Source of the DNA: Chloroflexota bacterium
GTDB lineage: Bacteria > Chloroflexota > Dehalococcoidia > Bin125
Direction: 5' to 3'
Length of the DNA: 64,000 nt
Assembly (NCBI GenBank): GCA_009838915.1
Contig: VXQT01000013.1
Location: 135,746 to 199,745, forward strand
Shown here: piece after piece, positions 37,550-51,144 of the stretch
Position numbering within the stretch: position 1 is the first letter of the stretch
How the letters are laid out: the number at the start of each line of letters is the position of its first letter
Program-made: the position numbers and the translations under genes
The notes under the pieces: generated by a model
Databases searched by the model: none
The model's input: the letters and a program-made list of their open reading frames with translations, nothing else
Told to the model about the DNA's origin: nothing

Positions 37550-38487
37550 CGCGCGCGGCAGTGCTCGCCGGGGGCGTCGGCGCGGCTCGATTTCTTGACG
37601 GTCTTGTCCGCGTCCTGCCGCCCGAAGACGTGACTGCGATCGTCAACGTAGGTGACGACATGGAGTGGGCCGGGCTGCACATCTCGCCCGACCTCGACAC
37701 GGTCTCGTACACCCTGGCCGGCCTGGTTAACCCGGAGACCGGCTGGGGCCTCATCGGCGAGTCGCGACGCACGCTGGACCGGCTCTCGCAACTGGGCGGA
37801 CCCGACTGGTTCATGATCGGCGACCTCGATCTGGCCACTCATCTCTACCGCACCCATCGTCTCTCGCAGGGCGACCCGCTCTCGGCGATCACCGGCGATC
37901 TCACCGCCCGCCTCGGGCTGCAGTGCGCGATCACACCCGTCACCGACGATCGGTTGCGCACGGTGGTGGGCACGGACAGCGGAGAGTTGGCCTTCCAGGA
38001 TTACTTCGTACGCCGCCGCGCCGCCGATCGCGTGCACTCGCTCAGATTCGACGGCGCCGACTCGGCCCGCCCAGCGCCGACGGTCGTCAAGACCCTGGAG
38101 CAGGCCGATGTCATCGTCATCGCGCCGTCCAATCCATTCCTCAGCATCGACCCGTTACTCAGCGTGCCGGGCTTGCGCGACTTGGTCGTCTCATACCGCT
38201 CTCGTGTCGTTGCAGTTAGCCCGATCGTTGGTGGGGCGGCGGTTAAGGGACCGGCGGCGGAGATCCTTCAGTCGCTGGGGCACGATGTCTCCGCGCTTGG
38301 CGTCGCGCGACTCTACGCGGACTTAGCCGGTGTATTCGTCCTCGACGAAGCTGACAAGCTCCTCGCCTCGAGGATTGAGGGCGAAACACAAATGCGCGTG
38401 GTCGTCATGCCAACGCTGATGACCGATGTCGGGGCGAAGATGTCGCTGGCCGAGGGAACCCTGAAGGCGGCGCTCAATGCCGACTGA
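37546..38487 (+). CDS. cofD: 2-phospho-L-lactate transferase (F420 biosynthesis)
   Basis: AVLAGGVGAARFL N-terminal motif and a CofD/YvcK fold. Confidence 0.85.
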   Translation: MTRAAVLAGGVGAARFLDGLVRVLPPEDVTAIVNVGDDMEWAGLHISPDLDTVSYTLAGLVNPETGWGLIGESRRTLDRLSQLGGPDWFMIGDLDLATHLYRTHRLSQGDPLSAITGDLTARLGLQCAITPVTDDRLRTVVGTDSGELAFQDYFVRRRAADRVHSLRFDGADSARPAPTVVKTLEQADVIVIAPSNPFLSIDPLLSVPGLRDLVVSYRSRVVAVSPIVGGAAVKGPAAEILQSLGHDVSALGVARLYADLAGVFVLDEADKLLASRIEGETQMRVVVMPTLMTDVGAKMSLAEGTLKAALNAD

Positions 38488-39169
38488 ACCGAGCGGCATC
38501 GTGGCCGTTGTTCCCGTGCGGGGACTGCCTGCGGGCAAACGCCGCCTGGCGGCTCTGCTCGATCTGGAGGAACGCAACTCACTGGTTCGCGCCATGCTGG
38601 ACGATGTGGTGGCTGCTCTGGTCGCTGCCGAGCGCGTCGACGAGGTCGTGATCGCATCGCGTGACGCCGCAGCACGCGACGAAGCGGCTCGTCTGAATGT
38701 CGGATTCCTCGATCAGACCGACCTGCGTCTCGGCTACAACCGGGCTGTGCAGTTCGCACAGGAGACGTTGGCCGACTCCGGTGCGATCCTGATCGTCCCG
38801 GCCGACGTGCCGCTAATCACCCCCGACTCGGTCGACATGATGGTCGCGACTGCGCCCGATGGTCCTGCAGTGGTCGTCGCGCCGGCGCACGATGGCGGCA
38901 CAAACGGACTGTTCCTGCGCCCTCCGGATGTCATTGCACCGCAGTTTGGACCGTCCTCGGCGCGCGCGCATCAACAGTCAGCGGCCGCCGCCGGCGAGAT
39001 GGGCGTGCCATTCCGCGAGTCGCGGATCGACGTCTGGGCGTTTGACCTGGACACACCGTCGGACTTGCGCTGGTTGAGGGAGGCGCTTCCGCAGTTGCCG
39101 GATGCGATCGCGCCCAACTCCAGGCGTTGGCTCTCGGCGCATGCGGCGCACATGGAAGCATTGAGCTAG
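38477..39169 (+). CDS. cofC: 2-phospho-L-lactate guanylyltransferase (F420 biosynthesis)
   Basis: IVAVVPVRGLPAGKRRL nucleotidyltransferase N-terminus. Overlaps cofD by 11 bp. Confidence 0.75.
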   Translation: MPTEPSGIVAVVPVRGLPAGKRRLAALLDLEERNSLVRAMLDDVVAALVAAERVDEVVIASRDAAARDEAARLNVGFLDQTDLRLGYNRAVQFAQETLADSGAILIVPADVPLITPDSVDMMVATAPDGPAVVVAPAHDGGTNGLFLRPPDVIAPQFGPSSARAHQQSAAAAGEMGVPFRESRIDVWAFDLDTPSDLRWLREALPQLPDAIAPNSRRWLSAHAAHMEALS

Positions 39170-39198
39170 GGAGCTCCTCCCTCTGTCCCGACGGGACA

Positions 39199-39223
39199 TC
39201 TCCCCCCGCTGCGCGGGGGGAGA
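39199..39223. terminator. GC-rich palindromic hairpin TCTCCCCCC-GCTGCGC-GGGGGGAGA between convergent genes
   Basis: 9-bp perfect stem with a 7-nt loop, preceded by a second small hairpin GTCCCGACGGGAC. Identical to the element after nrdJ. Confidence 0.6.
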
Positions 39224-39229
39224 TGGGAT

Positions 39230-40396
39230 TTAGGCGCGGGGGAGGCCGAAGCCTCGTTGGGCGATGATGTTGCGCTGGAGCTCATTGCCGCCGGCTCCGA
39301 AAGTGGGCATCACCGCTGCCAGGTATCCGTTCTCGGCAGAGCCGTCGATCGGCGCACGCTCGTCGTTGCCGTTGAGCTGACCGTACAGACCCATCGCGTG
39401 CAGCGAGAAGTTCTGCAAGCGCTGCATCATCTCCGTCGAGAAGATCTTGACCTGGCTGGCCTCGTAGTTGGGCGACTCTTCGCGCTTGAGCATGTCGAGG
39501 ATGCGATAGCTGAGGTGTTGCAGGACTTCGAGCTGAATCTTGAAGTCAGCCATCGTGCCTTTGATCCCGGCGTCCTCGATTGGTCGTCCCATCGGGGTGT
39601 CGGAACGCGCCCACTCCATCAGGCGGTCGTAGACGGCGCGTACGGACGAGACGGTGAAGATCGAAATTCGCTCACGGTCGAGCGCGTGGGCGGCGTAGTA
39701 CCAACCGCGGTTCTCCTCGCCGACGAGCACGTTGGTCGGCACCCGCACGTCCTCGAAGTAGACCTCGTTGGTGCGATAGCCGGCCATTGTCCAGAGCGGT
39801 TTCACCGTGATGCCGGCCGACTGCATGTCGACGAGCATCATCGAGACGCCGCGATGCTTAGGCGCGTCCGGGTCGGTGCGCGTCGCCAGCCAGACGTACT
39901 CGCTGCGATGCGCGCCCGAGGTGAAGCGCTTGATCCCGTTGAGGATGTAGTCGTCGCCGTCCTTGACGGCGCGCAACTGCAACGAAGCGAGGTCGGACCC
40001 CGCATCGGGTTCGGTATAACCGAGCGCGAACTCGACCTCGCCGCGGGCGATCGGCGGCAGGAACCGCTCTTGCTGCTCGTCGGTGCCGAAGCGCATCAGC
40101 GTCGGGCCAACCTGCTGAGTCGCGACGGTCGCCTGGGGCGCGCCGGCGTAGTTCATCGCCTCCCAGAAGAGGTACTGCTCCTCGAGCGAGCGCTCCTGAC
40201 CGCCATACTCGGCCGGCCAGGACATGGTCAGCCAGCCTCGCTCGGCGAGCAGCCTTCGGAATCCACGCTCTTCAACCATGGTGTCGGTCGTCGGGTCGCC
40301 GATCGTTGCCCGAAGCTCGGGAGTCCATTCCTGGTCGAGAAACTCGTTCACCTCGGTCTCGAAGGCGAGCGCCTTCTCGCTGAATCGGTATTCCAT
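39230..40396 (-). CDS. Acyl-CoA dehydrogenase family protein
   Basis: ACAD fold motifs (...YTEPDAGSD..., the catalytic base region, and a C-terminal helical domain). Confidence 0.8.
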   Translation of the reverse strand: MEYRFSEKALAFETEVNEFLDQEWTPELRATIGDPTTDTMVEERGFRRLLAERGWLTMSWPAEYGGQERSLEEQYLFWEAMNYAGAPQATVATQQVGPTLMRFGTDEQQERFLPPIARGEVEFALGYTEPDAGSDLASLQLRAVKDGDDYILNGIKRFTSGAHRSEYVWLATRTDPDAPKHRGVSMMLVDMQSAGITVKPLWTMAGYRTNEVYFEDVRVPTNVLVGEENRGWYYAAHALDRERISIFTVSSVRAVYDRLMEWARSDTPMGRPIEDAGIKGTMADFKIQLEVLQHLSYRILDMLKREESPNYEASQVKIFSTEMMQRLQNFSLHAMGLYGQLNGNDERAPIDGSAENGYLAAVMPTFGAGGNELQRNIIAQRGFGLPRA

Positions 40397-40454
40397 GGAA
40401 CTCTCCCCTGGGCGCGAGCGACGCGCAGACATTACCGCCTGACTCGGTCAAATG

Positions 40455-41858
40455 CTACCGCAGGCTGGGCAGGACTTTGTTAGGCGCGACCCTCACGATG
40501 TAGCTCGCCGCGCCGTTCAACATCCGCCTCGCAGACGCAGGCTGCGCTTCCTGAGCGGGTGCGTCTGCTGTTGGATGCTGCGGTACGCGGGCGCGGAGGA
40601 TGACAGGTCGAAGGAAGATCAGACCGGCAAGTATGGCCAGGACCGCGAACGACATTGGTGGGAACAGGGTCTCCATGGTGAGCGCCTGCGCGACCGCGCC
40701 CAGTGGTAGACCTGCGGCTTGGGCAATGCCCATACCGAGGAAGACAAGTCCCATGATCCGTCCGCGCATCTCGTTAGGCGTCTCGTGGGCGAGCGTCGCG
40801 TTGGCGGAGACCATGGCAGTCGACATGCCGATGCCGAGCAGGGCGTTGCCGAGCATGGCGTTGATCTGGGTCGGGGGATTGGTGAAGACCACGAAACCAA
40901 GCGCCATGATGATCACGCCGAGGCCGGTGAGCATCCCCTTGCGCTCGATCCACGAGAATCGCACCAGAACCAGCGACGCGACCATCGCGCCGCCGCCCCA
41001 GAAGACGGCGATGTAGCTGAACTGCGACCATGTCGCACCAACAACATTCGTCACCCACTGCGGACCGAGCGTCCCGGTCGGAGGCATGATCAGCGACATC
41101 ATCAGGACGACGATGACCACGGTCCAGAGGATGACCCCCTTGGAGCGCGCGTACCGCAAACCGGCGGCGATGTCGCGCAACGCCTGCCCTGCTCCCTGCC
41201 CCTGCCTCGCAGCCATGTGGGCTGCCGAGAAGACGGTCCGGTAAGACATCATCGCGAGAATCAGCACCTCGCCCAGGTGTCCAAACGCGGAAATCGCGAA
41301 CACGGCACCCTCGCCCAGGGTGTCAATCAACAGGCCGGAGGCGAAAATCGAAATCGGCATGGCGAACTGCATCGCGGCGGAGTTGAGCGCGATCCCGGAC
41401 GGCGTCAGCCGTGGTCCGAGGATTTCAGGTGTGATTGCGTTACGTGTGGGGCCGTCGATGGCGTGCGCCGATGAGGCGACGATGGTCAAGGCAAAGAAAA
41501 TGGCGATGTCGACGGCGCTGCCCGAGCCGGTGATCATCATCAGCGCGATCAGCAGGTTTGAGATGAAGGCGATCGACTGGGTGACCATCAACAGCCTGCG
41601 TCGGTCGAAACGGTCGGCAAGCGCGCCTCCGAAGAGACCGAAGCCGATCATCCCGATCCCGCGAATCGTGCCGATCGCGCCGACCATGATGATCTCGATG
41701 TCATCGGGCGCGACGAGCTGGATCCACGCAATCGAGGCGACAAACTGCAGCGGCATCATCGACTGACCGACGATGAAGCCGGTCAGCAGCAGCCGGAACT
41801 CGCGCAGCCTCAACGGCTCCGTCATGCCGGGACGCGCGGGAGGCGGCTGGGCGCTCAT
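40455..41858 (-). CDS. MFS transporter (EntS/enterobactin-exporter-like)
   Basis: 12 TM segments, with MFS motifs at GALADRFDRRRLL. Confidence 0.75.
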   Translation of the reverse strand: MSAQPPPARPGMTEPLRLREFRLLLTGFIVGQSMMPLQFVASIAWIQLVAPDDIEIIMVGAIGTIRGIGMIGFGLFGGALADRFDRRRLLMVTQSIAFISNLLIALMMITGSGSAVDIAIFFALTIVASSAHAIDGPTRNAITPEILGPRLTPSGIALNSAAMQFAMPISIFASGLLIDTLGEGAVFAISAFGHLGEVLILAMMSYRTVFSAAHMAARQGQGAGQALRDIAAGLRYARSKGVILWTVVIVVLMMSLIMPPTGTLGPQWVTNVVGATWSQFSYIAVFWGGGAMVASLVLVRFSWIERKGMLTGLGVIIMALGFVVFTNPPTQINAMLGNALLGIGMSTAMVSANATLAHETPNEMRGRIMGLVFLGMGIAQAAGLPLGAVAQALTMETLFPPMSFAVLAILAGLIFLRPVILRARVPQHPTADAPAQEAQPASARRMLNGAASYIVRVAPNKVLPSLR

Positions 41859-42487
41859 GTGCCTAGTTTCGCTGCTTCCAATACGGTGTGCGCCGACGAC
41901 TGCTTTACCTTGGCCACTCGCGTCGGTCCGAAGATGTCTACCAACCGGCGTGTCAGATACTTGCGCAATCCGTTTACAACCACGAGTGCCAGGCTGCCGC
42001 CGTCCAACATTGCGTCGTAGGCATCGAGCAGCAGTTGATCGAGCGCGTCATTGCCGGCCTGGGCGGGCAGGTTGGCGACGACAAGGTCGTAGGCGTGCAG
42101 CGGCTGCCGCAGTTGACGGATGCCGTCACTGAGCGTCACTGTTGCGTTCGCCAGTCGATTGCGCGCGATGTTCTGGGCGGCGGACTCGACTGCGCGCATG
42201 TCAGTATCGACCATATCGACTTGCGCGTCGGGCCAGCGAGCCGCGAGTGTGAGTCCGATTGCGCCGTATCCGCAGCCCAGGTCCAGGACTCGCGAGGGAG
42301 CGGGCAGCCGCTCCAACTCGCGGAGCAGCAGCGCGCTGCCTTCGTCTAGCGCACGGGCCGAGAAGAGGCCGTGACGGCTCCGGAGTTTCAGCACGCGGGG
42401 TCCTGCGTCTATGCGCAGCTCGGGCTGCTTGACAAGATGGCGTCGTAGTTCGACAACTCGGTCGGAGTCGACGGTGGAATCGCTCAC
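41855..42487 (-). CDS. Class I SAM-dependent methyltransferase (RsmC/small-domain type)
   Basis: VLDLGCGYGAIG SAM motif I and NLP motif IV-like (VVANLP). Confidence 0.75.
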   Translation of the reverse strand: MSDSTVDSDRVVELRRHLVKQPELRIDAGPRVLKLRSRHGLFSARALDEGSALLLRELERLPAPSRVLDLGCGYGAIGLTLAARWPDAQVDMVDTDMRAVESAAQNIARNRLANATVTLSDGIRQLRQPLHAYDLVVANLPAQAGNDALDQLLLDAYDAMLDGGSLALVVVNGLRKYLTRRLVDIFGPTRVAKVKQSSAHTVLEAAKLGT

Positions 42488-43575
42488 AGCGGATCAATCT
42501 TCTCGGAGACCGGAACAAAATCACCCATGTGCTCCGGGTCCATACGTCCCACGATTCCGGGATAGATGCCCGTGCGCTTACCGGCCGTCGCGCCGGCGAC
42601 CGCGATCAAAATGTGTGAGGGATGCGCGACCTTGGACATCGGTCGGTCGAGTTCGTCGGGCCCAAGACCGGAGTGGGCCAGGGCTGTGTCGGTGACGCCT
42701 CCGCCGACCTCAGCCGAGACGAGGCGTTCTCGGATCGGCAGAGCCGTCAGTTCCATAAGCGCTTCGCGGATGTCGGCCTTGCTCCAGCCGTCATGGCGGA
42801 AGACATGGGCATGTTCGGGGCTAACTACCAGCATCGATGGGCCGATTTGACCGTTGGGGCTAAAGATGCGCTGGAAGCCCATTGCCAGGGAACCGACCAG
42901 CGCGCGGGCGCTGCGGCTGTACTCGTCGATGCAGAGGCGAGGCCCGCCAATCACGGGTAGGAGCGTGACGACGCTGTCGTCGGGCGCGTAGCCGAACTCG
43001 ACATGTAGCGGCGGCCAGGGCGAGGCGTCCTCGTGCTCGGCGAAGGTGAGCGTGAATTTGTGGGCTCCACCAAGAATGGTCTGATCGATTTCGCCCTCTC
43101 GAGCCCCGCCGATGTTGCGCAACACAAGGCGCAACGCCCGGCCGATTGTCATGTTCGCTCGGTTGCCCTGGCCCAGCGCGTTGAGGCCCCAGTTCATTCC
43201 GATTTGTTCCCGGATTGGTCCGTTGACGATCAGCATCGGCGAGATGCCGTCCGTGCTGGCGACAACCCCGTGCAAGGGGAAACGGCCGGCTGATGCGGCT
43301 CGCACCGCGGCAATGATCGCGGGCAGGTACTCGGGCTTGGCCCCGGCTGCGACTGCGTTGACGGCAATCTTCTCGACCGTCGCATCGGCATAGTTGGGTG
43401 GGATTCTGCCGATGATCTCCGCTGGAGAGCACCGTGTTGCGCTCAGCATCCGCTCGACTCGCTCGCGAGTCGGCGGGACCAACGGGAGGCCGTCGGTGAT
43501 TCGCTGTTCGAGCATGAACTCGTAGACATCGTCGTGATCGGCGATGTCGACGGTTCGGGACAGGAGCTCGGTCAT
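42484..43575 (-). CDS. Uncharacterised conserved protein, paralog 1 of a tandem family (possibly the GGGtGRT family)
   Basis: Conserved blocks shared by three proteins in the window: DHDDVYEF, DGLPxVPPTRERV, NALGQGNRAN..GRALRL, FAEHEDASPW, GGP..CID. Has a GGGVTDT motif. Confidence 0.6.
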   Translation of the reverse strand: MTELLSRTVDIADHDDVYEFMLEQRITDGLPLVPPTRERVERMLSATRCSPAEIIGRIPPNYADATVEKIAVNAVAAGAKPEYLPAIIAAVRAASAGRFPLHGVVASTDGISPMLIVNGPIREQIGMNWGLNALGQGNRANMTIGRALRLVLRNIGGAREGEIDQTILGGAHKFTLTFAEHEDASPWPPLHVEFGYAPDDSVVTLLPVIGGPRLCIDEYSRSARALVGSLAMGFQRIFSPNGQIGPSMLVVSPEHAHVFRHDGWSKADIREALMELTALPIRERLVSAEVGGGVTDTALAHSGLGPDELDRPMSKVAHPSHILIAVAGATAGKRTGIYPGIVGRMDPEHMGDFVPVSEKIDPL

Positions 43576-44681
43576 GAACGGATCAGGGCGGAAGGCGGCT
43601 TGAACACTGGAGCGGTCTGCGTTGGATCGCCATCACCGAAGATGCCCTGGTAGATACTGGTCCACTTGCCGGCGTGGCTCCCGGCGACAGTGATGGCGAT
43701 GAAGGAGGGATCGGCGACCTTGGACATCGGTGCATCAAGGTCCGCCTCGGAGAGACCGTACTTCTCGGTCACGTACTCGTTGATGCCGCCGCCCATCGTC
43801 GGCGTGGCAAGACGCTCCCGCAGCGGGAGCGCGGTGAACTCCATGATCGCTTCGCGGATGTTGTCCTTCGACCAGCCATCCGCGCGATAGACATCGGCGT
43901 GTTCAGGGCTGATCACGAACATCGTCGGCGTAACCTGGCCGCGCGGCTTGACGACCTGCTGGAACGCCATGGCTATCGACCCGGTTAGTGCGCGAGCGTC
44001 GCGGCTGGTCTGGTCGATGCAGACACGCGGACCGCCGGTCGTGGGAAGCAAGGAAACCACGCTGTCAGCGGGATCGTAGCCGTGCTCGACGTGGAATGGT
44101 TCCCAGGGCGAGGTGTCTTCGTCTTCGGCGTAGCTGAGGGTCCACTTGTGTCCGCCGCCCTGGATGGCCTGCTCGATCTCGCCAGGCACCGCGCCGCCAA
44201 TGTTGCGCAGCATCAATCGCAGCGCGCGTCCGAGGGTCGAGTTGGCGCGGTTGCCCTGGCCCAGCGCGTTGAGCCCCCAATTCATGCCGATCGCTTTGCG
44301 CACTGGCCCGTTGACCAGCATCATCGGCGCGAGTCCCGCTGTAGTGGCGATCGAGCCGTGCAGTGGAAAGCGTCCGTCGGCCGCCGCTTCGACCGAGGCC
44401 AGAACTACGGGGAAGTACTCGGGCTTACAACCTGCCATGACCGCGTTGATGGCTGCCTTCTCGACTGTCATCGGCGCCATGTTGGGCGGGAGCGTCGCAA
44501 CCACCGCGCTGCGGTTGCTCCACTGCTCGGGGGCGCGCTCCAGCATCCGGTCGACGCGCTCGCGCGTCGGCGGGACGACCGGGAGGCCGTCGGTGATGCC
44601 CTGGTCGAAGATGAACTCGTGGACATCATCGTGGTCGGCGATCTCGATGACTCTTGAGTAGAAGTCGGATTCGCCGGACAC
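43572..44681 (-). CDS. Uncharacterised conserved protein, paralog 2
   Basis: The same conserved blocks as paralog 1. 4-bp overlap with paralog 1. Confidence 0.6.
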   Translation of the reverse strand: MSGESDFYSRVIEIADHDDVHEFIFDQGITDGLPVVPPTRERVDRMLERAPEQWSNRSAVVATLPPNMAPMTVEKAAINAVMAGCKPEYFPVVLASVEAAADGRFPLHGSIATTAGLAPMMLVNGPVRKAIGMNWGLNALGQGNRANSTLGRALRLMLRNIGGAVPGEIEQAIQGGGHKWTLSYAEDEDTSPWEPFHVEHGYDPADSVVSLLPTTGGPRVCIDQTSRDARALTGSIAMAFQQVVKPRGQVTPTMFVISPEHADVYRADGWSKDNIREAIMEFTALPLRERLATPTMGGGINEYVTEKYGLSEADLDAPMSKVADPSFIAITVAGSHAGKWTSIYQGIFGDGDPTQTAPVFKPPSALIRS

Positions 44682-44721
44682 AGAGAAGCCCTGTCTGTTG
44701 ATGTTGGCTGGCGCCCCCTCT

Positions 44722-44772
44722 GCCTTCGCTTCTCTCTCCCCCCGAGGAGCGGGGAGAGAGAGAAGCGAAGGC
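44722..44772. terminator. Long GC-rich hairpin (~20-bp stem) between the selenoprotein gene and paralog 2
   Basis: GCCTTCGCTTCTCTCTCCCC ... GGGGAGAGAGAGAAGCGAAGGC with a 9-nt loop CCGAGGAGC. No U-tract. Confidence 0.5.
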
Positions 44773-44799
44773 GTCGATCCTCCAGAGGAGGACGAAGAG

Positions 44800-45330
44800 C
44801 TACTCGACGGGCGCCATCAAGGTGTCAAGAATCTCGTCGACGAAGCGTTCGGCGTGTTCGTGCATCTCGGCGTCGGTGCGGTCCTGCATCGGATGCGGAA
44901 TGAAGACGCGACGCACTTCTTCGAGTCCAAGTCGCTCGGCCTGGTGGCTGGCGGCCTTGATGAACTCGGAGGTGGCGACGAAAACGCTGGGCTTGCCCTG
45001 CAGTTCGAAAAAGACGGTGTCGTGCACACTGCACGTCGTGCAGGATCCTCAATCGGCGAGCGCTTCGATGACGAAGTCGCACTCCTCCAGAATCTCATCC
45101 TTGATCGGTTGCGGGGCCGGCTTGGCGACAGTCGGCTTCATGAAGCGGCGCGTCTCGACTCCTGGCGCGCGCTCGTGCAGCAATTCCTCAAGCCGGTCGA
45201 GGAAGACGTCGCCGCGCGGCTTGGAAATGTCGAGCAGCGCAATCGTCCCATGCAGCGCCTCGGGGCGCGGCGTGAGCGATCGCTTGATCGGCACTCGTTC
45301 GTCCGTAGGGTCGAGGATCTGGGTAACCAT
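44800..45330 (-). CDS. UGSC family selenoprotein with selenocysteine at an in-frame TGA (minus-strand codon 45051..45049)
   Basis: ORFs 45049..45330 and 44800..45027 are in the same frame, separated by one TGA and 7 codons. Read-through gives ...EALAD-U-GSCTTCS-VHDTVFF..., which is the U-G-S-C motif. A hairpin lies 11 nt downstream of the UGA. Thioredoxin-like context. Confidence 0.75.
45019..45051 (-). other. Candidate bacterial SECIS element: UGA followed by an 11-nt spacer and a hairpin GACGUGCA-GUG-UGCACGAC
   Basis: 7-bp stem with one A.A mismatch and a GUG apical loop. It starts 11 nt 3' of the UGA, matching the positional rule for SelB-dependent recoding. Confidence 0.55.
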
Positions 45331-45400
45331 TGGACCTCTCCATCAACGCGCCGTCTGCAGGGTTGCGGCGCGCTACTCGCAGTCTGTCATACTCGGCGTC

Positions 45401-46978
45401 TCATACGCCGATCTTCCCGCTGGTCGGCAACGAATAGGCGCCGCCGGCCCAGCCGCCGAGGATGGTTGAGAACTTCGCCGCCGGCGAACCGGCGACGACG
45501 AGGATGATGTTGGACTTGTCGCGAAACTTGGACACCGGCATGTCGAGTGCGGCTTCCCCGCCGAAGCGCTCGACGATGTCGGGCGGCAAACCACAGCCGG
45601 CGTCAGCGGAACGCAGGCGGTCCTTGAGCGGAATCGCCGTCTCTTCCATGATGCACTCGCGCACGTCGTCCTTGGACCAGCCCGAGCGTCCGAAGATGCC
45701 GGCATGGTCGGGCGAGAGAACGACGAGGGTATCGACCATCGGCGATTTGGGGTCCTGCATGCAACTCATCGAGAGCGCCAATGTGCCGGCCAGTCCGCGG
45801 CCGTCGCGCGAGCGCTCGTCGGCGACCGTGGCCGGTCCACCGGACATGGCCATCAGCGTCGCGACATCGTCGGTCGGCTCAAAGCCGCGCTCAACGGCGA
45901 GTGACTCCCAGGGGCTGGCGTCTTCGTGTTCGGCGAAGTTCATGGTCAGACGGTGCGGCCCGCCCTGGGTCGCGCGGTCGGTGCCGCCGGGCACGCTGCC
46001 GCCGACGTTGCGGGCGCAAAGCCTCAGCGCGCGGCCGATGGACGCATTGGCGCGGTTGCCGCTGCCCAGCGCGTTGTGCAGGTAGTTCATCCCGATCCGG
46101 TCGCGGATCGGACCGTTGAAGACACCAACCGGCGTCGCGCCCATGGTCGTGGCCAACACGCCGTGGATGTTGAAGCTTTCGGTGCAAGCGATTTCGACCA
46201 GGGTGATGATCGAGGGCAGATACTCGGGCTTCGCGCCGGCCATGACGGCGTTGATCGCGATCTTCTCCACCGTGATCGGCGCGAGGTTGGGCGGCATGAC
46301 CGCGACTTCATCCTGCGGGTCGCGCGGCGTGCCCTGGAGCATCTTCCAGACGCGCTCGCGGGTCGGCGGCACAACCGGGAAACCGTCGGTGTAGCCCTGC
46401 TCATACATGAACTCGTGGATGTCGTCGCTTGCGGCGAGGTCAACGAGTCGTGAGAGCAGGTCGCCGCTCTTGAGCGCCTGCAGCCGCTCGTAAACGCCCG
46501 GTTCGTAGTTGCGGGCCCCGCAGCCGGGCCGTTGCTCGGGCAACGCCTCCCAATCGATGGCAGTGTCCCCGCCGGACCGGCCGGCGAGCGTCATCGATTC
46601 GCCGGCAATCTCGCGCCACTCGTGCTTGTCGAAGCCGAAGGTCTGCAGTGTGCAGTTTTGCTCTTCGTCGTAGAGGAAGAGCGTGGGCACGGTGTCGATG
46701 TCGGTCTCGTACGAGAGGTCGAGCGCGTCGTCGTCGAGCAGCGGCATGGTCAGGTCGTGGCGATCCTTGAGCACGGCGATATCGTCGCGCTTCTGCACTG
46801 CAACCCAGACATCCAGGCCGTCCTCGGTCGCGCGGTGGACGGCTTCAAGCAGCGGGAGCGTCAGGTTGCAGGTGTCGCAGTCCTCTTTGACCAGTGCTAG
46901 CAATACTGGCCCGTCGGGCGGGAAGTGCATCTCTTCGCCATCGGCGTTGGCGAGGGCAAAACGAGTTGGCGGGTGCAT
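45401..46978 (-). CDS. Fusion protein: N-terminal thioredoxin-like CxxC domain plus paralog 3 of the uncharacterised family
   Basis: N-terminal ...LLALVKEDCDTCNLTLPLLE is a Trx-fold CxxC. From ~160 aa onward the same blocks appear as in paralogs 1 and 2 (GFPVVPPTRERV, NALGSGNRAN..GRALRL, FAEHEDASPW). Confidence 0.65.
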   Translation of the reverse strand: MHPPTRFALANADGEEMHFPPDGPVLLALVKEDCDTCNLTLPLLEAVHRATEDGLDVWVAVQKRDDIAVLKDRHDLTMPLLDDDALDLSYETDIDTVPTLFLYDEEQNCTLQTFGFDKHEWREIAGESMTLAGRSGGDTAIDWEALPEQRPGCGARNYEPGVYERLQALKSGDLLSRLVDLAASDDIHEFMYEQGYTDGFPVVPPTRERVWKMLQGTPRDPQDEVAVMPPNLAPITVEKIAINAVMAGAKPEYLPSIITLVEIACTESFNIHGVLATTMGATPVGVFNGPIRDRIGMNYLHNALGSGNRANASIGRALRLCARNVGGSVPGGTDRATQGGPHRLTMNFAEHEDASPWESLAVERGFEPTDDVATLMAMSGGPATVADERSRDGRGLAGTLALSMSCMQDPKSPMVDTLVVLSPDHAGIFGRSGWSKDDVRECIMEETAIPLKDRLRSADAGCGLPPDIVERFGGEAALDMPVSKFRDKSNIILVVAGSPAAKFSTILGGWAGGAYSLPTSGKIGV

Positions 46979-47074
46979 GAACGTATTCTAGCGTTGCGAG
47001 TCATCGCTCCAACCGTTGACCATGTCACAGGTTGGCGCGAAACTACGTCGAGAACAGTTGAGGGGTGTGATCCA

Positions 47075-47404
47075 ATGGCTCAGCTTCGGCGGCTCCTACT
47101 CGCGTTGGTGGTGGTTGGGGGTCTGAGCGCGCTCACGCTGGGCGCAGCTGCAGCGGGTGAGCATGCGTTGACGGAGCCGGTGCAGATCGCGGAGGCGGGC
47201 GGTGAGGAAGACGACAGCTTGCACGTCTCGGACGAGACGCTGGCAACTTCGCTGTTCATTCCCTTCTGCTTCGTCGGCGCCACGGTGCTGGTGTTCATCT
47301 GGGCAATCCGCAGCCGAGCGAGGCGCGAGGACGATGAAGAGCCGATGCCCTGGTGGCGGACTCGCGAATGGTACACGCGGGGGATGGAAGAGGACGGCGG
47401 CTGA
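47075..47404 (+). CDS. Hypothetical small exported/membrane protein
   Basis: Signal-peptide-like N-terminus, acidic segment, a C-terminal TM helix and a basic tail. GAGGGG RBS. Confidence 0.4.
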   Translation: MAQLRRLLLALVVVGGLSALTLGAAAAGEHALTEPVQIAEAGGEEDDSLHVSDETLATSLFIPFCFVGATVLVFIWAIRSRARREDDEEPMPWWRTREWYTRGMEEDGG

Positions 47405-47444: not shown

Positions 47445-48545
47445 CTAGAACAGCAGGCGCCCCAGGCGCTTGCGGTACTCGACGACCACGGGCTGGTCGT
47501 CGCCCAACATGCCGAAGATGCCCAACAACGTCCTGCGAGCGGCTTCGTCCTGGGCGGTCTTGTCTAACTTGACCGACTCCAACAGTTCGTCCAGCGCCTG
47601 CATCCACTGGCCCTCAACTGCCAGCAGACAGCCGTGCCGGTAGCGAGCGAGCGCGTCGTCCGGGCTCGTCCCGGCCGCGCGACGCACCTCATCGGGGTCA
47701 AGTCCGTCCAGCACGGCCGTGAGCTCCATCGCCGTCAGCACGCTCTTGCTCATCGGATGGTTGGGCCAGCGCTTGGCGAGCTCCACGGCTCGCTCGTTCT
47801 CGCCAATGCGTGAGAGCACGGCGGCGAGCCCGACGCCGGCCGGTTCGTGATCCGGATCCTCTTCGAGCGCGGATTCGAAGTGCAGGCGCGCGATCGGGAT
47901 TTGGTTCTCCTGCAGCATCCGATATCCCTCAGCGGCCTTGATGTCGGCCTCGGACGGGATCAATGAATCGAAGAATGCGCGCACCTGTTCCTCAGGCAAC
48001 GCCCCGACAAACCGGTTGACGAGCTGTCCCCCAACGAAGGCAAACACCGCCGGGATGCCTTCCACCTGCAGCGCCTGAGCGACCTGTGGATTCTCGTCCG
48101 TGTTGACCTTGACGAGCTGGACCTGCCCGTCGCGCTCGTAGGCCAGCTTCTCGAGAACTGGTCCGAGCACTCGGCAGGGGCCGCACCACGGAGCCCAACA
48201 ATCGACGATCACCGGAATCTCATGCGATCGCTGGATGACATCCTGAGCGAAGCTGGCGTCGGTCGAGTCGATTACCGCCGCGACGTGTCCGTGGAGACTG
48301 ACCGGTTCGTTGTCTTCTGCCTCCGCCTGGAGAGGCTCTGCAGGCTGCGCGGGCGAAGGCGTGCGGTTCAGCGGAACCGGTTCCGGCGGCGGTGTAGACG
48401 GTTGCTGCTGCACCCGCCGCATCGGTTGGCCGGAGGCCGAGTAGATGACCGGACCGGACGGTTGTTGCTGCTGCTGCGGAGGCGGCGCGCCGCGCTGTAC
48501 TGGGTCACCGGGGAACGGAATCGGGTCGGGCGGCCTCTGCGTCAT
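47445..48545 (-). CDS. Thioredoxin-domain protein with C-terminal TPR-like domain (YbbN/CnoX-like)
   Basis: WAPWCGPC active site. Gln/Pro-rich N-terminus. Internal ATG with a GGAG RBS chosen as start. Confidence 0.8.
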   Translation of the reverse strand: MTQRPPDPIPFPGDPVQRGAPPPQQQQQPSGPVIYSASGQPMRRVQQQPSTPPPEPVPLNRTPSPAQPAEPLQAEAEDNEPVSLHGHVAAVIDSTDASFAQDVIQRSHEIPVIVDCWAPWCGPCRVLGPVLEKLAYERDGQVQLVKVNTDENPQVAQALQVEGIPAVFAFVGGQLVNRFVGALPEEQVRAFFDSLIPSEADIKAAEGYRMLQENQIPIARLHFESALEEDPDHEPAGVGLAAVLSRIGENERAVELAKRWPNHPMSKSVLTAMELTAVLDGLDPDEVRRAAGTSPDDALARYRHGCLLAVEGQWMQALDELLESVKLDKTAQDEAARRTLLGIFGMLGDDQPVVVEYRKRLGRLLF

Positions 48546-48580
48546 TCGAGTCTCCGGGCTAGTCAGGGTGACCGGTTCGG

Positions 48581-48781
48581 TTACCAGTTGGTGTAGCGCT
48601 TGCGTTTGGGGAAGTTGGCAGAGCGGTTCTTGGTCGAGTTGTTCTCGAAGATACCGGCAATGACACGCTCGGACTTGGCCTCGCAGGTCGGACAATCCTG
48701 CGGCTCCGAGGCCTGTGACATGGGACGGATCTTCTCAAAGTTCTCGCTGCACTTCTCGCAGCGATAGGTGTAGACGGGCAC
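48581..48781 (-). CDS. FmdB family zinc-ribbon protein
   Basis: (M)PVYTYRCEKC...CPTC. GTG start with AGGAG 9 nt upstream. Confidence 0.65.
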   Translation of the reverse strand: MPVYTYRCEKCSENFEKIRPMSQASEPQDCPTCEAKSERVIAGIFENNSTKNRSANFPKRKRYTNW

Positions 48782-48819
48782 GTCATCATCTCCTGAAGCG
48801 TTGGACGATCGGATCGAGT

Positions 48820-49695
48820 CTATCGCGCCCGCGCAGAAACAACTGAGCGTCGCAGCTGGCGGGCCGCGCCCGACACGCTTAGCGCCCAGGAGACCTCTTC
48901 CACGTCGTGCACGCGGACCACATGCGCGCCGAGCCAGGCGGCGAGAACGTTGAACGCGATCGTGGCCTCCAACATGCCGGGGCGAGCCTGGGCGTCGTGC
49001 GAACGGAGCTCGCCGTAGCCCAGCAACTCTGCGAGGAATCCCTTGCGCGAGGCGGAGATCAGGACCGGATAGCCGAGTGCGGCGAGGTCGGGGAGGTCGA
49101 GTAGCAGGCGGAGGTTGTCTTCGAGTCCGCGGCCGAACTGGAATCCCGGGTCGATCCAGACATCGGGCGCGCCGGCCTGCTTGATCTCGCCCGCACGCTG
49201 TTCGAGGTAGCTGCGCACTTCGGCGGTGACGTTGTCGTAGTCATGGTCGGCTTCGCGGTGACGCTGGGGACGTCCGCGCATGTGCATGATCGCAATAGGC
49301 GTCCCGGTTTCGACTGCGACTGTGACGGTGTCCGGATCTGCGCCGGTGATGTCGTTAATCAAGTGCGCGCCCGCGGCGACCGCTGCACGGGCGACGGACG
49401 CGGTCCAGGTGTCAACGGAAACCAGGTGCCCCTCCGCGACCAGGGACTCGACGACTGGTCCGACGCGAGCGATCTCTTCGTCCGGAGCGACCTCCACGGC
49501 GCCCGTTCGCGTCGATTGCGCGCCGACGTCGATGATGCTCGCGCCGGCCCTTCGCAGCTCCGCAGCGCGGCGCGGAGCGTCGCCGACAGGAACAACTGAA
49601 TCGGATACAGGCGAGTCGGTTGCGACGTTGAGGATACCCATGACCAGGCAGCGGTCGGTCGCGTCGAGCTGCTGGCCGCCAAGCTCAATCAGCAT
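48820..49695 (-). CDS. folP: Dihydropteroate synthase
   Basis: Pterin-binding domain motifs (LVMGILNVATDS, IIDVGAQSTR, INDITG). Confidence 0.85.
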   Translation of the reverse strand: MLIELGGQQLDATDRCLVMGILNVATDSPVSDSVVPVGDAPRRAAELRRAGASIIDVGAQSTRTGAVEVAPDEEIARVGPVVESLVAEGHLVSVDTWTASVARAAVAAGAHLINDITGADPDTVTVAVETGTPIAIMHMRGRPQRHREADHDYDNVTAEVRSYLEQRAGEIKQAGAPDVWIDPGFQFGRGLEDNLRLLLDLPDLAALGYPVLISASRKGFLAELLGYGELRSHDAQARPGMLEATIAFNVLAAWLGAHVVRVHDVEEVSWALSVSGAARQLRRSVVSARAR

Positions 49696-49704
49696 CGTCG
49701 GCTC

Positions 49705-51144
49705 TCAGCGCCGCCGGGCCACGTAGTGGGGGCTGCGGCCGAAGAACAGCTGCGCCGCTTCCATGATCGACTCGTTTAGCGTCGGGTGAGCGTGAATCGA
49801 CTCGGCCAGGTCCGAAGCTCGCGCACCCATTTCGACGGCCAGCACACCCTCTCCGATCAGCTCGCCGGCGCCTGGACCGACGATCTGCATTCCCAACACT
49901 CGCTCCGATCCCTGCTCAATGACCAGTCGAGTGAGCCCGTCGTTGCGGCCGGAGGCAGAAGCGCGGCCAAGCGCCGCCCAAGGGAAGCTGACCGTGGTTG
50001 CCTCGACGTCAATCGCGGAGGCGTCGGCCTGGCTTAGCCCACACCAGGCAATCTCGGGGTCGGTGAAGATCACTGCAGGAACGGCAAGTGGGCGAAACAT
50101 TGCCGGCTCACCGAGGATGGCCTCGATCGCGACCGACGCTTCCGCAGTGGCCTTGTGCGCCAGCATGGGCTCACCGGCGACGTCTCCGATAGCAAAGATC
50201 GATGGCTCTGCGGTGCGGCGCTGCATGTCGGTGACAATGAAGCCGTGATCGTCAACGTGGGCCTTCGTGCGATGCAGTCCCAGACCGGCGCTGTTGGGGC
50301 GCCGCCCGGTGGCGATCAAGACGCGGTCAAATGTCTCGGTCCGCTCGACGCCGGCGTCGTCGGCCAGCACTGCCTCGATGCCCTGATCGACTTCCGTCAG
50401 CGAGACCACGGTGGTATTGACCAGGGTTTCGGCGAAGCGCGATCGTAGGCTGCGCTTGAGCACGCGTACCAAGTCGTGTTCCACGCCGCTGAGGATGTCG
50501 GGCAGCGACTCGACCACGGTCACGGTCGATCCCAGTTCGGCGTACACCGTTCCAAGCTCGAGTCCGATGTAGCCGCCGCCGACAACCAGCAGCGAGTCTG
50601 GCACATCCGGCAGTTCGAGCGCCTGGGCGGCGTCCATGACAAGCTCGGAGTCGAGCTGCAGTGGGCGGGGGATTGCCGCGCTGGAGCCGGTGGCGATGAT
50701 CAGGGCGTCGAAATCGAACGGCAGCACCTCGCCGTTCGACTCGATGTTGAGCTGGTTGGCGTCGCGAATGCGGCCGAAGCCTTGCTGGTAGTGGACGTGG
50801 TGTTGTCGTCGCAGTAGTCCCAGACCATTGGTCATCTTGAGGACCACACCGTCCTTCCAGTCGCGAAGCTGATCCAGGTCGATTTGCGGCTCCCCGAAGC
50901 TGATGCCCCACTCGGACGCATGGCGGGCCTCGCGAATCAGTTTGGCGACATGCAACAGCGCCTTGGAGGGAATACAGCCCTCGTAGAGGCAGACGCCACC
51001 TGGTTGAGGCCGCGTATCGATCAGAGTGACATCGAGGCCTCGCTCGGCCGCGTGGAACGCGGCCGGGTAGCCTCCCGGACCTGCACCGAGCACGGCGAGG
51101 CGTATCGTGCCCGTGCCGGTGCCGTTTGCGTCGCTGGTCACCAC
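49705..51144 (-). CDS. lpd: Dihydrolipoyl dehydrogenase (E3)
   Basis: FAD motif GAGPGG, redox-active disulfide GGVCLYEGCIPSK, and NAD and dimerisation domains. Confidence 0.9.
   Translation of the reverse strand: MVTSDANGTGTGTIRLAVLGAGPGGYPAAFHAAERGLDVTLIDTRPQPGGVCLYEGCIPSKALLHVAKLIREARHASEWGISFGEPQIDLDQLRDWKDGVVLKMTNGLGLLRRQHHVHYQQGFGRIRDANQLNIESNGEVLPFDFDALIIATGSSAAIPRPLQLDSELVMDAAQALELPDVPDSLLVVGGGYIGLELGTVYAELGSTVTVVESLPDILSGVEHDLVRVLKRSLRSRFAETLVNTTVVSLTEVDQGIEAVLADDAGVERTETFDRVLIATGRRPNSAGLGLHRTKAHVDDHGFIVTDMQRRTAEPSIFAIGDVAGEPMLAHKATAEASVAIEAILGEPAMFRPLAVPAVIFTDPEIAWCGLSQADASAIDVEATTVSFPWAALGRASASGRNDGLTRLVIEQGSERVLGMQIVGPGAGELIGEGVLAVEMGARASDLAESIHAHPTLNESIMEAAQLFFGRSPHYVARRR

What the first reader, a model, noticed from the sequence alone, without database searches (positions are those of the whole stretch)
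40455..46978. Candidate selenoprotein-centred redox operon: thioredoxin-fusion paralog, UGSC selenoprotein, two further paralogs, SAM methyltransferase, MFS exporter
Six co-directional minus-strand genes. Three of the junctions are 4-bp overlaps. The operon contains three paralogs of one uncharacterised ~360-aa family, with shared blocks DGLPxVPPTRERV, NALGxGNRAN..GRALRL, FAEHEDASPW and GGP..CID. One paralog carries an N-terminal thioredoxin-fold CDTC domain. The Sec-containing UGSC protein sits in the middle of the array. I recall that UGSC proteins are reported to co-occur with a 'GGGtGRT' family, and paralog 1 has GGGVTDT, but I cannot verify that here. No function is known for either family. 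A triplicated partner, a Trx fusion, a methyltransferase and an exporter together suggest an undescribed selenium-dependent redox or small-molecule-modifying pathway.
Basis: partly seen in the sequence, partly recalled or inferred. Interest (0 to 1): 0.75.

Follow-up and report, generated by a model that had tools for sequence, protein, structure and literature searches.

The report
Thioredoxin-linked UGSC selenoprotein and unknown partner enzyme
This gene cluster encodes a selenocysteine protein of unknown function (UGSC) together with three copies of a very large, unnamed protein family that turns out to be its regular partner across bacteria and archaea, most likely forming a thioredoxin-powered reductase whose substrate is still unknown.

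Summary
Six co-directional minus-strand genes, three ATGA/GTGA overlaps, a UGSC gene with an in-frame TGA, and three 49-60% identical paralogs of a ~360-aa family ("X") are all present.

UGSC is a genuine selenoprotein. TGA is kept in 80/80 homologous loci, and a SECIS-like hairpin shows two compensatory changes.

X is the only conserved neighbour of UGSC (60/80 loci, several phyla). In cultured organisms it is adjacent or fused to UGSC in both orders. X carries a thioredoxin-like or ferredoxin:thioredoxin-reductase-like domain, or sits beside trxB/trxA.

Best reading: a thioredoxin-driven two-component (seleno)reductase with unknown substrate.

Not supported: the GGGtGRT link, and the methyltransferase and MFS as core parts. 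The methyltransferase holds the same syntenic slot in a genome whose X-UGSC pair lies elsewhere.

One twist: this clade's three paralogs have lost the two cysteines conserved across the rest of the family.

A UGSC/"Unknown_1" fusion was noted in 2008, but I could not confirm that Unknown_1 is X.

The parts
45401..46978 (-). Paralog 1: fusion of an N-terminal thioredoxin-like domain (aa 1-~140), a Cys-containing linker and the X core (aa ~165-525)
   Evidence: ORF. X-core profile hit E 1e-175. Weak AhpC-TSA/ResA matches. Homologous ~520-aa proteins carry precomputed PF00578/PF08534. The same architecture lies directly upstream of UGSC in most of the 80 loci.
46868..46879 (-). CDTC (Cys34-x-x-Cys37) motif of the thioredoxin-like domain
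   Evidence: Coordinates and codons. CxxC is present in 66 of the 82 X-family proteins with a long N-terminal extension and CxxS/T in 13. Alignment.
46520..46522 (-). Linker cysteine Cys153 in the motif R-P-G-C-G-A-R, about 45 residues before the DG(L/F)P motif of the X core
   Evidence: A (P)GCG[SA][KR] motif is present in essentially all Trx-X fusions examined.
44800..45330 (-). UGSC family selenoprotein gene (176 aa including Sec94), with motif U-G-S-C-T-T-C
   Evidence: NF041046 at 155 bits (cutoff 125) and PF24696 at E 3e-44. Translation. The model of Cys homolog P0122 (pLDDT 91) is a five-strand parallel alpha/beta fold, with the Sec position at the strand 3 / helix junction.
45049..45051 (-). 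In-frame TGA read as selenocysteine
   Evidence: TGA sits at the aligned position in 80 of 80 homologous loci, with the conserved frame continuing. Cys occupies this position in full-length homologs P0122 and P0123 and in haloarchaeal and actinobacterial proteins.
45021..45035 (-). SECIS-like hairpin CGUGCA-GUG-UGCACG, nucleotides +17 to +31 counted from the U of UGA, with G23-U24 in the loop
   Evidence: Paired in 100% of cells over 35 distinct sequences. Two pairs show compensatory double changes (G-C to A-U in L029, A-U to G-C in L069). 1 of 500 shuffles reaches the observed values. Synonymous positions within it are nearly invariant, while those just upstream vary. The resemblance to the E. 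coli fdhF SECIS is from my own knowledge.
44722..44772 (.). 23-bp near-perfect inverted repeat in the UGSC/paralog-2 spacer (REP-like GC-rich palindrome)
   Evidence: Inverted-repeat pair I2. Folding of the whole 131-nt spacer gives -77.8 kcal/mol, z -7.3. Close relatives carry variable numbers of similar palindromes at this site, so it is not a conserved regulatory element.
43572..44681 (-). Paralog 2: standalone X protein (369 aa, GTG start). It keeps Cys85 but has Ser at family position 183.
   Evidence: Model pLDDT 87.4, pTM 0.88. No fold match in the PDB. Cysteine states.
42484..43575 (-). Paralog 3: standalone X protein (363 aa), with Ala and Thr at the two family-wide Cys positions. Present in only some close relatives.
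41855..42487 (-). Small-domain SAM methyltransferase (MTS, PF05175), with NLPA in place of the usual NPPY/F motif. Co-transcription is likely; shared function is doubtful.
   Evidence: Small clade-restricted subfamily. It sits in the same syntenic slot without X or UGSC in L081.
40455..41858 (-). MFS transporter (MFS_1/MFS_3, EntS-like). Clade-specific accessory gene.
   Evidence: Present with the module only in related Dehalococcoidia loci.

Best explanation
The core of this cluster is a two-component, thioredoxin-driven (seleno)reductase.

**Components**
- The ~360-aa X protein, a fold with no solved relative, is the substrate-binding or catalytic subunit. Here it is present as three lineage-specific paralogs that probably assemble as a hetero-oligomer.
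- The UGSC protein is a small flavodoxin/Rossmann-like subunit. Its Sec94-x-x-Cys97(-x-x-Cys100) sits at a strand-to-helix junction and forms the redox centre.

**Proposed electron path:** NADPH, then thioredoxin reductase, then the thioredoxin-like CDTC domain fused to paralog 1 (possibly via linker Cys153), then the selenenylsulfide of UGSC, then a substrate held on X.

**Substrate:** unknown. Recurrent neighbours suggest a small organic acid or CoA ester. These are family III CoA-transferases, TRAP/TTT carboxylate transporters, LysR regulators and SDRs.

**Shown:** the gene structure, Sec recoding, the X-UGSC partnership (adjacency and fusions), and the attachment or adjacency of disulfide-reductase modules.

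**Inferred:** the direction of electron flow, that the reaction is a reduction, the hetero-oligomer, and the substrate class.

The methyltransferase and MFS genes are probably co-transcribed passengers, or at most clade-specific accessories.
For: **Sec.** TGA is present in 80/80 loci. The SECIS hairpin has two compensatory pairs. Cys homologs exist.

**Partnership**
- X is the only gene family conserved next to UGSC: 60 of 80 loci, including Chloroflexota, Binatia/delta, Gammaproteobacteria, Sulfitobacter, Actinobacteria and Acidobacteria MAGs.
- Acidobacterial loci L073 and L077 hold a second, divergent X+UGSC pair.
- Natural fusions occur in both orders: X-UGSC, UGSC-X, and tandem X-X.
- All nine plasmid contexts of cultured organisms that I examined have a UGSC domain adjacent or fused to X.
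- Halalkalicoccus has the X-UGSC-X order seen here.

**Electron supply**
- Trx-like CxxC fusions are widespread.
- Ferredoxin:thioredoxin-reductase beta-like domains are fused instead in P0381 and P0258.
- Operons found: trxB-trxA-X-UGSC in Arthrobacter, X-UGSC-trxB in Roseovarius, trxB-...-X-UGSC in Variovorax, and trxB directly downstream of UGSC in L038.

**Position of Sec.** It lies at the end of strand 3, at the N-terminus of a helix, in a confident model. In my experience this is the usual position for redox CxxC/UxxC motifs.

**Motif.** The UxxCxxC motif matches that reported for GrdB (PMC13188914).
Against: - No member of either family has been studied experimentally, so no activity is known.
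- Across the X family two cysteines are strongly conserved: Par2 position 85 (92%) and position 183 (86%). All three paralogs here have lost one or both (A/N, C/S, A/T). The window's system may therefore work differently from the family norm.
- Some fused UGSC domains have lost the redox motif entirely: P0344, P0360 and Sporomusa. UGSC therefore also has a non-redox, structural role.
- 20 of the 80 UGSC loci have no X within 10 kb. At least one such genome appears to encode X elsewhere, inferred only from a matching contig length.
- I could not model the complex.
Confidence: 0.5

Rival explanations
1. X and UGSC together hold a metal or iron-sulfur centre. The ligands would be the two family-wide X cysteines plus the U/CxxC of UGSC. 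The enzyme would then be a metallo-enzyme such as a hydro-lyase-type catalyst rather than a thiol/selenol reductase. The thioredoxin modules would serve only to keep the ligands reduced.
For: - X has a conserved Cys pair next to invariant acidic residues, in the pattern C-[FI]-A-E-x-E.
Against: - The three paralogs in this window lack the Cys pair, yet keep Sec, the CDTC motif and the linker Cys.
- Recurrent trxB/trxA operons and FTR-like fusions point to dithiol/disulfide chemistry.
Confidence: 0.15
2. The system is an aerobic counterpart of glycine or D-proline reductase. On this reading X is a proprotein that is cleaved at the conserved linker cysteine (PG|CG) to give an N-terminal pyruvoyl group. 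That group binds an amine substrate. Sec of UGSC then performs the reductive C-N cleavage, and thioredoxin regenerates it.
For: - UGSC carries UxxCxxC, the motif reported for GrdB.
- Prd and Grd are two-component enzymes, with a pyruvoyl subunit plus a small Sec subunit. The pyruvoyl comes from a cysteine (PMC11229817).
- A cysteine is conserved just upstream of the X core in essentially all Trx-X fusions.
Against: - UGSC shows no sequence similarity to GRDB (PF07355), and X shows none to Gly_reductase (PF09338), even at E up to 10.
- Standalone X proteins and UGSC-X fusions lack the linker cysteine, so a pyruvoyl cofactor cannot be general.
- The third Cys of the motif is replaced by Trp in many UGSC domains.
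- The hosts are aerobes with no Stickland context.
Confidence: 0.1
3. One reading: all six genes form one pathway. The X-UGSC enzyme makes or modifies a small molecule, the methyltransferase methylates it, and the MFS protein exports it.
For: - The genes are co-directional with 4-bp overlaps from paralog 2 through the MFS.
- UGSC is followed by this methyltransferase subfamily, with or without the MFS, in several Dehalococcoidia lineages at only 50-55% identity: L026, L040, L046, L076 and L082.
Against: - In L081 the methyltransferase sits in the same slot, between the Trx-TPR gene and cofC/cofD, with no X or UGSC. That genome's Trx-X/UGSC pair is 1.2 Mb away, with different neighbours.
- No methyltransferase or MFS accompanies the module in the other phyla or in archaea.
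- The methyltransferase belongs to the rRNA/protein N-methyltransferase small-domain class.
Confidence: 0.15

Closest known systems
UGSC family (seleno)protein (NCBIfam NF041046, Pfam PF24696), the 'UGSC-containing protein' of Zhang and Gladyshev
   Same: The window's 176-aa protein is a full member. It scores above the curated cutoff, has the UGSC motif, and has in-frame TGA. [quoted passage not shown]
   Different: Nothing differs at the level of this protein. The literature calls it a protein of unknown function, 'likely Trx-like fold'. The model here is flavodoxin/Rossmann-like instead.
UGSC/'Unknown_1' domain fusion noted in the GOS selenoproteome paper (PMC2398784, Figure S1A)
   Same: I found many X-UGSC and UGSC-X fusions. 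These are probably the same fusion, so a link between UGSC and an unnamed domain was already in print in 2008.
   Different: The published panel is an image that I could not read, so identity of Unknown_1 with X is inferred. The paper gives one sentence. It does not cover gene neighbourhoods, thioredoxin or TrxB/FTR links, family size, structure, or the paralog expansion seen here.
Glycine reductase protein B (GrdB/GrdE) and D-proline reductase (PrdB/PrdA)
   Same: Both are two-subunit enzymes. A small selenoprotein with UxxC(xxC) acts on a substrate held by a larger partner. Electrons come from the thioredoxin system for glycine reductase.
   Different: There is no detectable sequence relationship. 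There is no evidence of a pyruvoyl group. The hosts are aerobic heterotrophs and haloarchaea. X is an unrelated, unmatched fold.
Thioredoxin-fused or thioredoxin-operon reductases in general, such as Trx-Msr fusions and ferredoxin:thioredoxin reductase
   Same: A disulfide-reductase module (Trx-like CxxC, FTR beta-like, or adjacent trxB/trxA) is attached to a catalytic protein.
   Different: The catalytic partner and its chemistry are unknown. An extra dedicated Sec/Cys carrier (UGSC) is interposed.
GGGtGRT protein family
   Same: Only a partial string resemblance: GGGVTDT in paralog 3.
   Different: No NCBIfam hit. The string is not conserved in the other two paralogs. In the papers I read, GGGtGRT proteins are iron-regulated proteins of Bacteroides and Clostridium, next to NifU, with no UGSC link.

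Membership tests
UGSC family (NF041046 / PF24696) | Profile match above the curated cutoff over the whole protein | tested here: met
   155.3 bits against a cutoff of 125. PF24696 E 2.8e-44, profile positions 1-171 of 172.
UGSC family (NF041046 / PF24696) | U/C-G-S-C motif with Sec encoded by in-frame UGA | tested here: met
   EALAD-TGA-GSCTTC. TGA in 80/80 loci.
Bacterial selenoprotein gene | SECIS stem-loop shortly downstream of UGA, with conserved G/U in the apical loop | tested here: met
   Hairpin at +17 to +31, loop GUN, 100% paired, two compensatory pairs. No Rfam family reached threshold.
Bacterial selenoprotein gene | selA/selB/selD and tRNA-Sec in the same genome | not testable with these tools
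   No tRNA in the window and the rest of the genome is not available. In Paracoccus ferrooxidans, selB lies about 3 kb from the UGSC-X pair.
Thioredoxin-fold redoxin (AhpC-TSA / TlpA-ResA type), N-terminal domain of paralog 1 | Profile match above threshold | tested here: inconclusive
   PF00578 at 15.4 bits against a cutoff of 26. ResA/StoA E ~5e-3. Homologous fusions carry precomputed PF00578/PF08534.
Thioredoxin-fold redoxin (AhpC-TSA / TlpA-ResA type), N-terminal domain of paralog 1 | CxxC active-site motif | tested here: met
   C34-D-T-C37. The aligned column shows CxxC or CxxS/T across fusions.
GGGtGRT protein family | NCBIfam profile match and a conserved GGGtGRT motif | tested here: not met
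   Zero NCBIfam families for paralogs 2 and 3, and only weak redoxin hits for paralog 1. The aligned strings are GGGVTDT, GGGINEY and GCGLPPD. I assume, from the NCBI product name, that a GGGtGRT model is in the library.
GrdB/PrdB selenoprotein B (PF07355) | Profile match | tested here: not met
   No PF07355 hit for UGSC at E up to 10.
GrdB/PrdB selenoprotein B (PF07355) | UxxCxxC motif | tested here: met
   UGSCTTC here and UGSC[TV][TS]C in all 80 loci. The motif is attributed to GrdB in PMC13188914. The third Cys is not conserved in more distant UGSC domains.
GrdE/PrdA pyruvoyl proprotein (PF09338) | Profile match, and self-cleavage at Cys to give a pyruvoyl group | tested here: not met
   No Pfam hit for any paralog at E up to 10. 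Cleavage itself is not testable here.
MTS small-domain methyltransferase (PF05175) | Profile match | tested here: met
   111 bits, E 4.8e-32.
MTS small-domain methyltransferase (PF05175) | (N/D)PP(Y/F) substrate-amine motif | tested here: not met
   The sequence reads VVANLPAQ. That this motif defines the family is from my own knowledge.
Major facilitator superfamily | Profile match | tested here: met
   PF07690 E 3.9e-32, PF05977 E 7e-18, TIGR00900 E 1.6e-30.

The most novel reading that the evidence does not exclude
X plus UGSC is a widespread, so far unrecognised class of thioredoxin-dependent (seleno)enzyme. It would be built on a protein fold with no solved relative, and would catalyse a reductive bond cleavage or reduction on small organic acids or CoA esters in aerobic bacteria and haloarchaea. 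That would make it an aerobic counterpart of the Stickland reductases. In this sponge- and ocean-associated Dehalococcoidia clade it has been remodelled: the X subunit was triplicated and the ancestral X cysteine pair lost, leaving Sec as the only catalytic chalcogen.
Probability: 0.3. Interest if true: 0.85.

Novelty: new variant of a known kind. Interest (0 to 1): 0.62.

Why it matters
[quoted passage not shown] A 2026 review still describes the biological functions of this group of selenoproteins, UGSC included, as largely uncharacterised.

This analysis gives it three things:
- A regular partner, from a very large protein family with no Pfam or NCBIfam model and no structural relative.
- An electron source, the thioredoxin system.
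- Cultured hosts in which the pair can be studied. These are Arthrobacter sp. ERGS1:01, Roseovarius sp. THAF8, Variovorax sp. SRS16, Paracoccus, Sulfitobacter sp. M05, and haloarchaea. The actinobacterial and haloarchaeal forms carry Cys, which should be easy to express.

That makes the function of UGSC directly testable.

It also exposes systematic annotation problems. Sec-containing genes and fusions are truncated, split or left unannotated in public records.

Tried and rejected
- **Family and sequence searches for X.** Pfam and NCBIfam scans of the paralogs gave nothing, even at E up to 10. Single-sequence and profile searches of PDB sequences gave only noise or nothing.
- **Rfam.** The scan of the window gave no hit.
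- **The published fusion figure.** Figure S1A of the 2008 paper is an image and could not be compared.
- **The 23-bp spacer hairpin.** I considered it as a regulatory element or terminator. I rejected it as a conserved element because relatives carry variable numbers of different GC-rich palindromes there, and the promoter/terminator scan was no better than shuffles.
- **The alternative 5-bp hairpin overlapping the SECIS.** It pairs but shows no compensatory change.
- **The TGA as a true stop separating two small genes.** Rejected on conservation, Cys homologs and profile coverage of both halves.
- **Other conserved neighbours of UGSC.** Apart from X, none was general. Acyl-CoA dehydrogenase, enoyl-CoA hydratase and SDR genes recur, but these are abundant paralog families in these genomes and I could not test enrichment.
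- **Homology of UGSC to GrdB/PrdB.** Beyond the Pfam scan this could not be tested, because I had no GrdB/PrdB sequences or structures.

Full report
**What is in the sequence**

- a 525-aa protein, 45401-46978
- a 176-aa reading frame, 44800-45330, interrupted by a single TGA
- two proteins of 369 and 363 aa, 43572-44681 and 42484-43575
- a 210-aa methyltransferase, 41855-42487
- a 467-aa MFS transporter, 40455-41858

The last three junctions are ATGA/GTGA overlaps. The first two are gaps of 70 and 118 nt.

The three ~360-aa units are clear paralogs. The fusion core is 49% identical to each standalone copy, and the two standalone copies are 60% identical to each other. No other copy of either family lies in the 64-kb window.

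**The selenoprotein**

With U read as C, the interrupted frame matches NCBIfam NF041046 'UGSC family (seleno)protein' at 155 bits (cutoff 125). It also matches Pfam PF24696 over its full length.

I fetched 80 loci encoding relatives from one-genome-per-species contigs. All 80 have TGA at the aligned position, followed by the conserved frame: UGSC[TV][TS]C. Full-length homologs with Cys at that position exist.

Downstream of the TGA, the synonymous positions of codons +6 to +10 are almost invariant, while those of the preceding four codons vary freely. These bases form the hairpin CGUGCA-GUG-UGCACG at +17 to +31.
- It is paired in every one of 35 distinct sequences.
- Two independent double changes keep pairing: G-C to A-U and A-U to G-C.
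- Only 1 of 500 shuffles reaches the observed values.

The position, and the G23-U24 in the loop, resemble the E. coli fdhF SECIS (my own knowledge). An overlapping alternative hairpin pairs but shows no compensatory change. I take the Sec reading as established.

**The partner family X**

None of the three paralog cores matches any Pfam or NCBIfam model, even at E up to 10. They match no PDB sequence by single-sequence or profile search.

A model of paralog 2, built from 52 homologs, is confident: pLDDT 87.4, pTM 0.88. It has no structural relative.
- Foldseek against the PDB gives nothing below E 1e-3, with TM about 0.2.

The family is nevertheless very large. There were more than 7,900 hits in the word-indexed search, which was capped at 8,000 candidates. 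There are 6,618 cluster representatives at 50% identity with E up to 1e-3, of which 2,043 are below 1e-30. In RefSeq-annotated plasmids of cultured organisms it is always 'hypothetical protein'.

**X and UGSC belong together**

Starting from UGSC:
- The only gene family conserved in its neighbourhood is X. It is present in 60 of 80 loci, nearly always as a Trx-like-X fusion immediately upstream on the same strand.
- These loci include Chloroflexota, Binatia/deltaproteobacterial, Gammaproteobacteria, Ilumatobacteraceae and Acidobacteria MAGs, and Sulfitobacter sp. M05.
- Two acidobacterial loci hold a second, much more divergent X+UGSC pair a few kb away.

Starting from X:
- Among the 150 best cluster representatives, dozens are natural fusions.
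- Some are X followed by the UGSC N-terminal half, ending exactly at the Sec position. These are Sec-type fusions truncated by gene callers.
- Some are full Cys-type UGSC followed by X.
- Some are the UGSC C-terminal half followed by X. These are Sec-type fusions called from after the TGA.
- Some are tandem X-X.

I examined nine plasmid contexts from cultured bacteria and archaea. All nine have a UGSC domain adjacent or fused to X. Halalkalicoccus jeotgali has the order X-UGSC-X, as in this window.

A 2008 metagenome paper mentions a 'UGSC/Unknown_1' fusion in one sentence (PMC2398784). This is probably the same domain, but the figure is an image and I could not verify it.

**Where the electrons come from**

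The N-terminal domain of paralog 1 is only weakly recognisable as a redoxin in this protein. It has C34-D-T-C37, and homologous fusions carry PF00578/PF08534 hits.

Among the 82 X-family proteins with a long N-terminal extension, 66 have CxxC and 13 have CxxS/T. Almost all of the Trx-X fusions among them also have a conserved cysteine in a (P)GCG[SA][KR] linker motif. That is Cys153 here.

Other family members replace the Trx-like domain with a ferredoxin:thioredoxin-reductase catalytic-chain domain, at either end.

Where X has no fused redox domain, thioredoxin-system genes sit in the operon:
- trxB-trxA-X-UGSC in Arthrobacter sp. ERGS1:01
- X-UGSC-trxB in Roseovarius sp. THAF8
- trxB-TTT-SDR-X-UGSC in Variovorax sp. 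SRS16
- trxB directly downstream of UGSC in Chloroflexota MAG locus L038

This is the main reason I favour a thioredoxin-driven redox enzyme.

**The UGSC fold**

The window's own protein could not be submitted, so I modelled the 51%-identical Cys homolog P0122. The model has pLDDT 91. It is a five-strand parallel alpha/beta sandwich, with the Sec/Cys at the end of strand 3 and the N-terminus of the following helix.

So UGSC is not a thioredoxin fold, contrary to the suggestion in the literature. I do not read a specific relationship into the Mmp7/McrC hits.

The UxxCxxC motif equals the one reported for GrdB. However, no Pfam GRDB match exists, and the third Cys is Trp in many distant UGSC domains.

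**An unexpected feature of this window**

I aligned 193 X domains, 113 of them non-redundant at 70% identity. Two cysteines are family-wide.
- One is in A-G-C-[KR]-P-E-Y (Par2 position 85, 92% Cys).
- The other is in K-x-T-x-C-[FI]-A-E-x-E (position 183, 86% Cys), next to an invariant Glu186.

The pair is present in most members of every architecture class and in all nine cultured-organism examples.

The three paralogs here read A/N, C/S and A/T, as do their orthologs in close relatives.

A neighbour-joining tree, without bootstrap, places paralog 1 and the (paralog 2, paralog 3) pair in one clade restricted to this Dehalococcoidia lineage.
- Relatives L017-L021 have a single standalone copy.
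- Paralog 3 is present in only some genomes.

The triplication is therefore lineage-specific and coincides with loss of the cysteine pair. I cannot say whether the pair is a redox disulfide or a metal site. No coordinates were available to measure distances.

**The methyltransferase and the transporter**

The methyltransferase is a small-domain MTS enzyme whose best named relatives are RsmC and PrmC. It has NLPA where that class usually has NPPY/F (the motif is from my own knowledge). Its close subfamily is small and confined to related Chloroflexota.

Comparing loci shows a conserved backbone: folP, Zn-ribbon, Trx-TPR, a small membrane protein, [variable insert], then cofC/cofD on the opposite strand. 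The insert varies between genomes:
- methyltransferase alone (L081)
- X-UGSC-methyltransferase (L082)
- TrxX-UGSC-X-methyltransferase-MFS-acyl-CoA dehydrogenase (L083)
- the window's version, with two standalone X genes

In the L081 genome the Trx-X/UGSC pair lies 1.2 Mb away, with different neighbours. Outside these lineages, no methyltransferase or MFS accompanies the module.

The overlaps make co-transcription likely here. Comparative evidence does not support a shared pathway.

**Hints about the substrate**

These are weak.
- Family III (CaiB/BaiF) CoA-transferase genes lie within 10 kb in 12 of the 80 loci. They are directly downstream of UGSC in six gammaproteobacterial loci and in L035. 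They also flank the module in Halalkalicoccus, Roseovarius and Natrinema.
- TRAP or TTT carboxylate transporters, LysR regulators, SDRs and isocitrate-lyase/PEP-mutase family proteins recur.
- Phosphosulfolactate synthase recurs twice.

I could not test enrichment against genome background. I therefore offer only 'small organic acid or CoA ester' as a guess.

**Verdict**

The central inference is supported and considerably strengthened: a selenoprotein-centred redox system built on an uncharacterised partner family.

Three details are not supported: the GGGtGRT link, and the methyltransferase and the exporter as integral parts. GGGtGRT proteins, in the papers I could read, are iron-regulated proteins of gut anaerobes next to NifU.

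The best explanation is a thioredoxin-driven two-component (seleno)reductase of unknown substrate (confidence about 0.5). The rivals are a metal/Fe-S centre, a pyruvoyl-type Stickland-like mechanism, and the six-gene single pathway.

Both families remain without any experimental characterisation. The 2008 fusion note means the bare link may not be new. The size and structural isolation of X, the thioredoxin connection, the cultured hosts and the cysteine-less triplicated variant are, as far as the library I searched shows, unreported.

Noticed in passing
window 44722-44772, and the same spacer in L002-L011 and L033: The UGSC/paralog-2 spacer holds a 23-bp near-perfect palindrome; the whole 131-nt spacer folds at -77.8 kcal/mol (z -7.3). 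Close relatives carry one to four different GC-rich palindromes there, for example CCCCTCTCCC-nnn-GGGAGAGGG followed by TAGGGTGAGGGC. The spacer length ranges from about 50 to 250 nt. This looks like a family of REP-like mobile palindromes.
   Followed up: partly
window 42484-46978 (family positions 85 and 183 of the X core): All three X paralogs of this clade have lost one or both of the two cysteines conserved in about 90% of the wider family (A/N, C/S, A/T). UGSC keeps Sec, and the Trx domain keeps CxxC.
   Followed up: yes
L073 14547-16292 and L077 about 12977-15107: Acidobacterial loci carry a second, much more divergent X+UGSC pair (36-39% and 32-34% identity) a few kb downstream of the first. 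This suggests the two families diversify as a pair.
   Followed up: partly
L090 5338-7899 (Acidovorax sp. T1 plasmid p2-T1); L088 6399-8056 (Paracoccus ferrooxidans pFER4): Sec-type UGSC-X genes are missing from the distributed gene table or split. In Acidovorax the stretch after the TGA has no listed gene. In Paracoccus the UGSC halves are two 'hypothetical proteins', with selB 3 kb away. Many database entries for X-UGSC fusions stop exactly at the Sec codon.
   Followed up: partly
window 46925-47404 (+ strand): A small predicted membrane protein is encoded divergently just upstream of paralog 1. It is conserved at this position in at least 14 related loci and in L083/L084. Its annotated ORF start overlaps the start of paralog 1, so the true start is probably the downstream ATG.
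   Followed up: no
window 37546-40432 and 47445-51144: The module sits in a conserved backbone. On one side are cofD/cofC (F420 biosynthesis) and an acyl-CoA dehydrogenase. On the other are a Trx-TPR (YbbN-like) protein, a Zn-ribbon protein, folP and a dihydrolipoamide dehydrogenase. The insert between Trx-TPR and cofC varies in gene content between related genomes.
   Followed up: partly
P0344, P0360; L092 5287-7041 (Sporomusa termitida pSPTER): Some UGSC-X fusions have a UGSC domain with no Cys or Sec at the redox motif (for example GDMGTSSAT in Sporomusa, followed by an FAD-dependent oxidoreductase gene). The UGSC domain therefore also has a non-redox role.
   Followed up: no
L089 2883-3350 (Natrinema zhouii) and L091 3668-4456 (Arthrobacter sp. 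ERGS1:01): Genes annotated as phosphosulfolactate synthase lie within a few kb of the X-UGSC pair in two unrelated cultured organisms. This is a possible hint towards organosulfonate metabolism.
   Followed up: no
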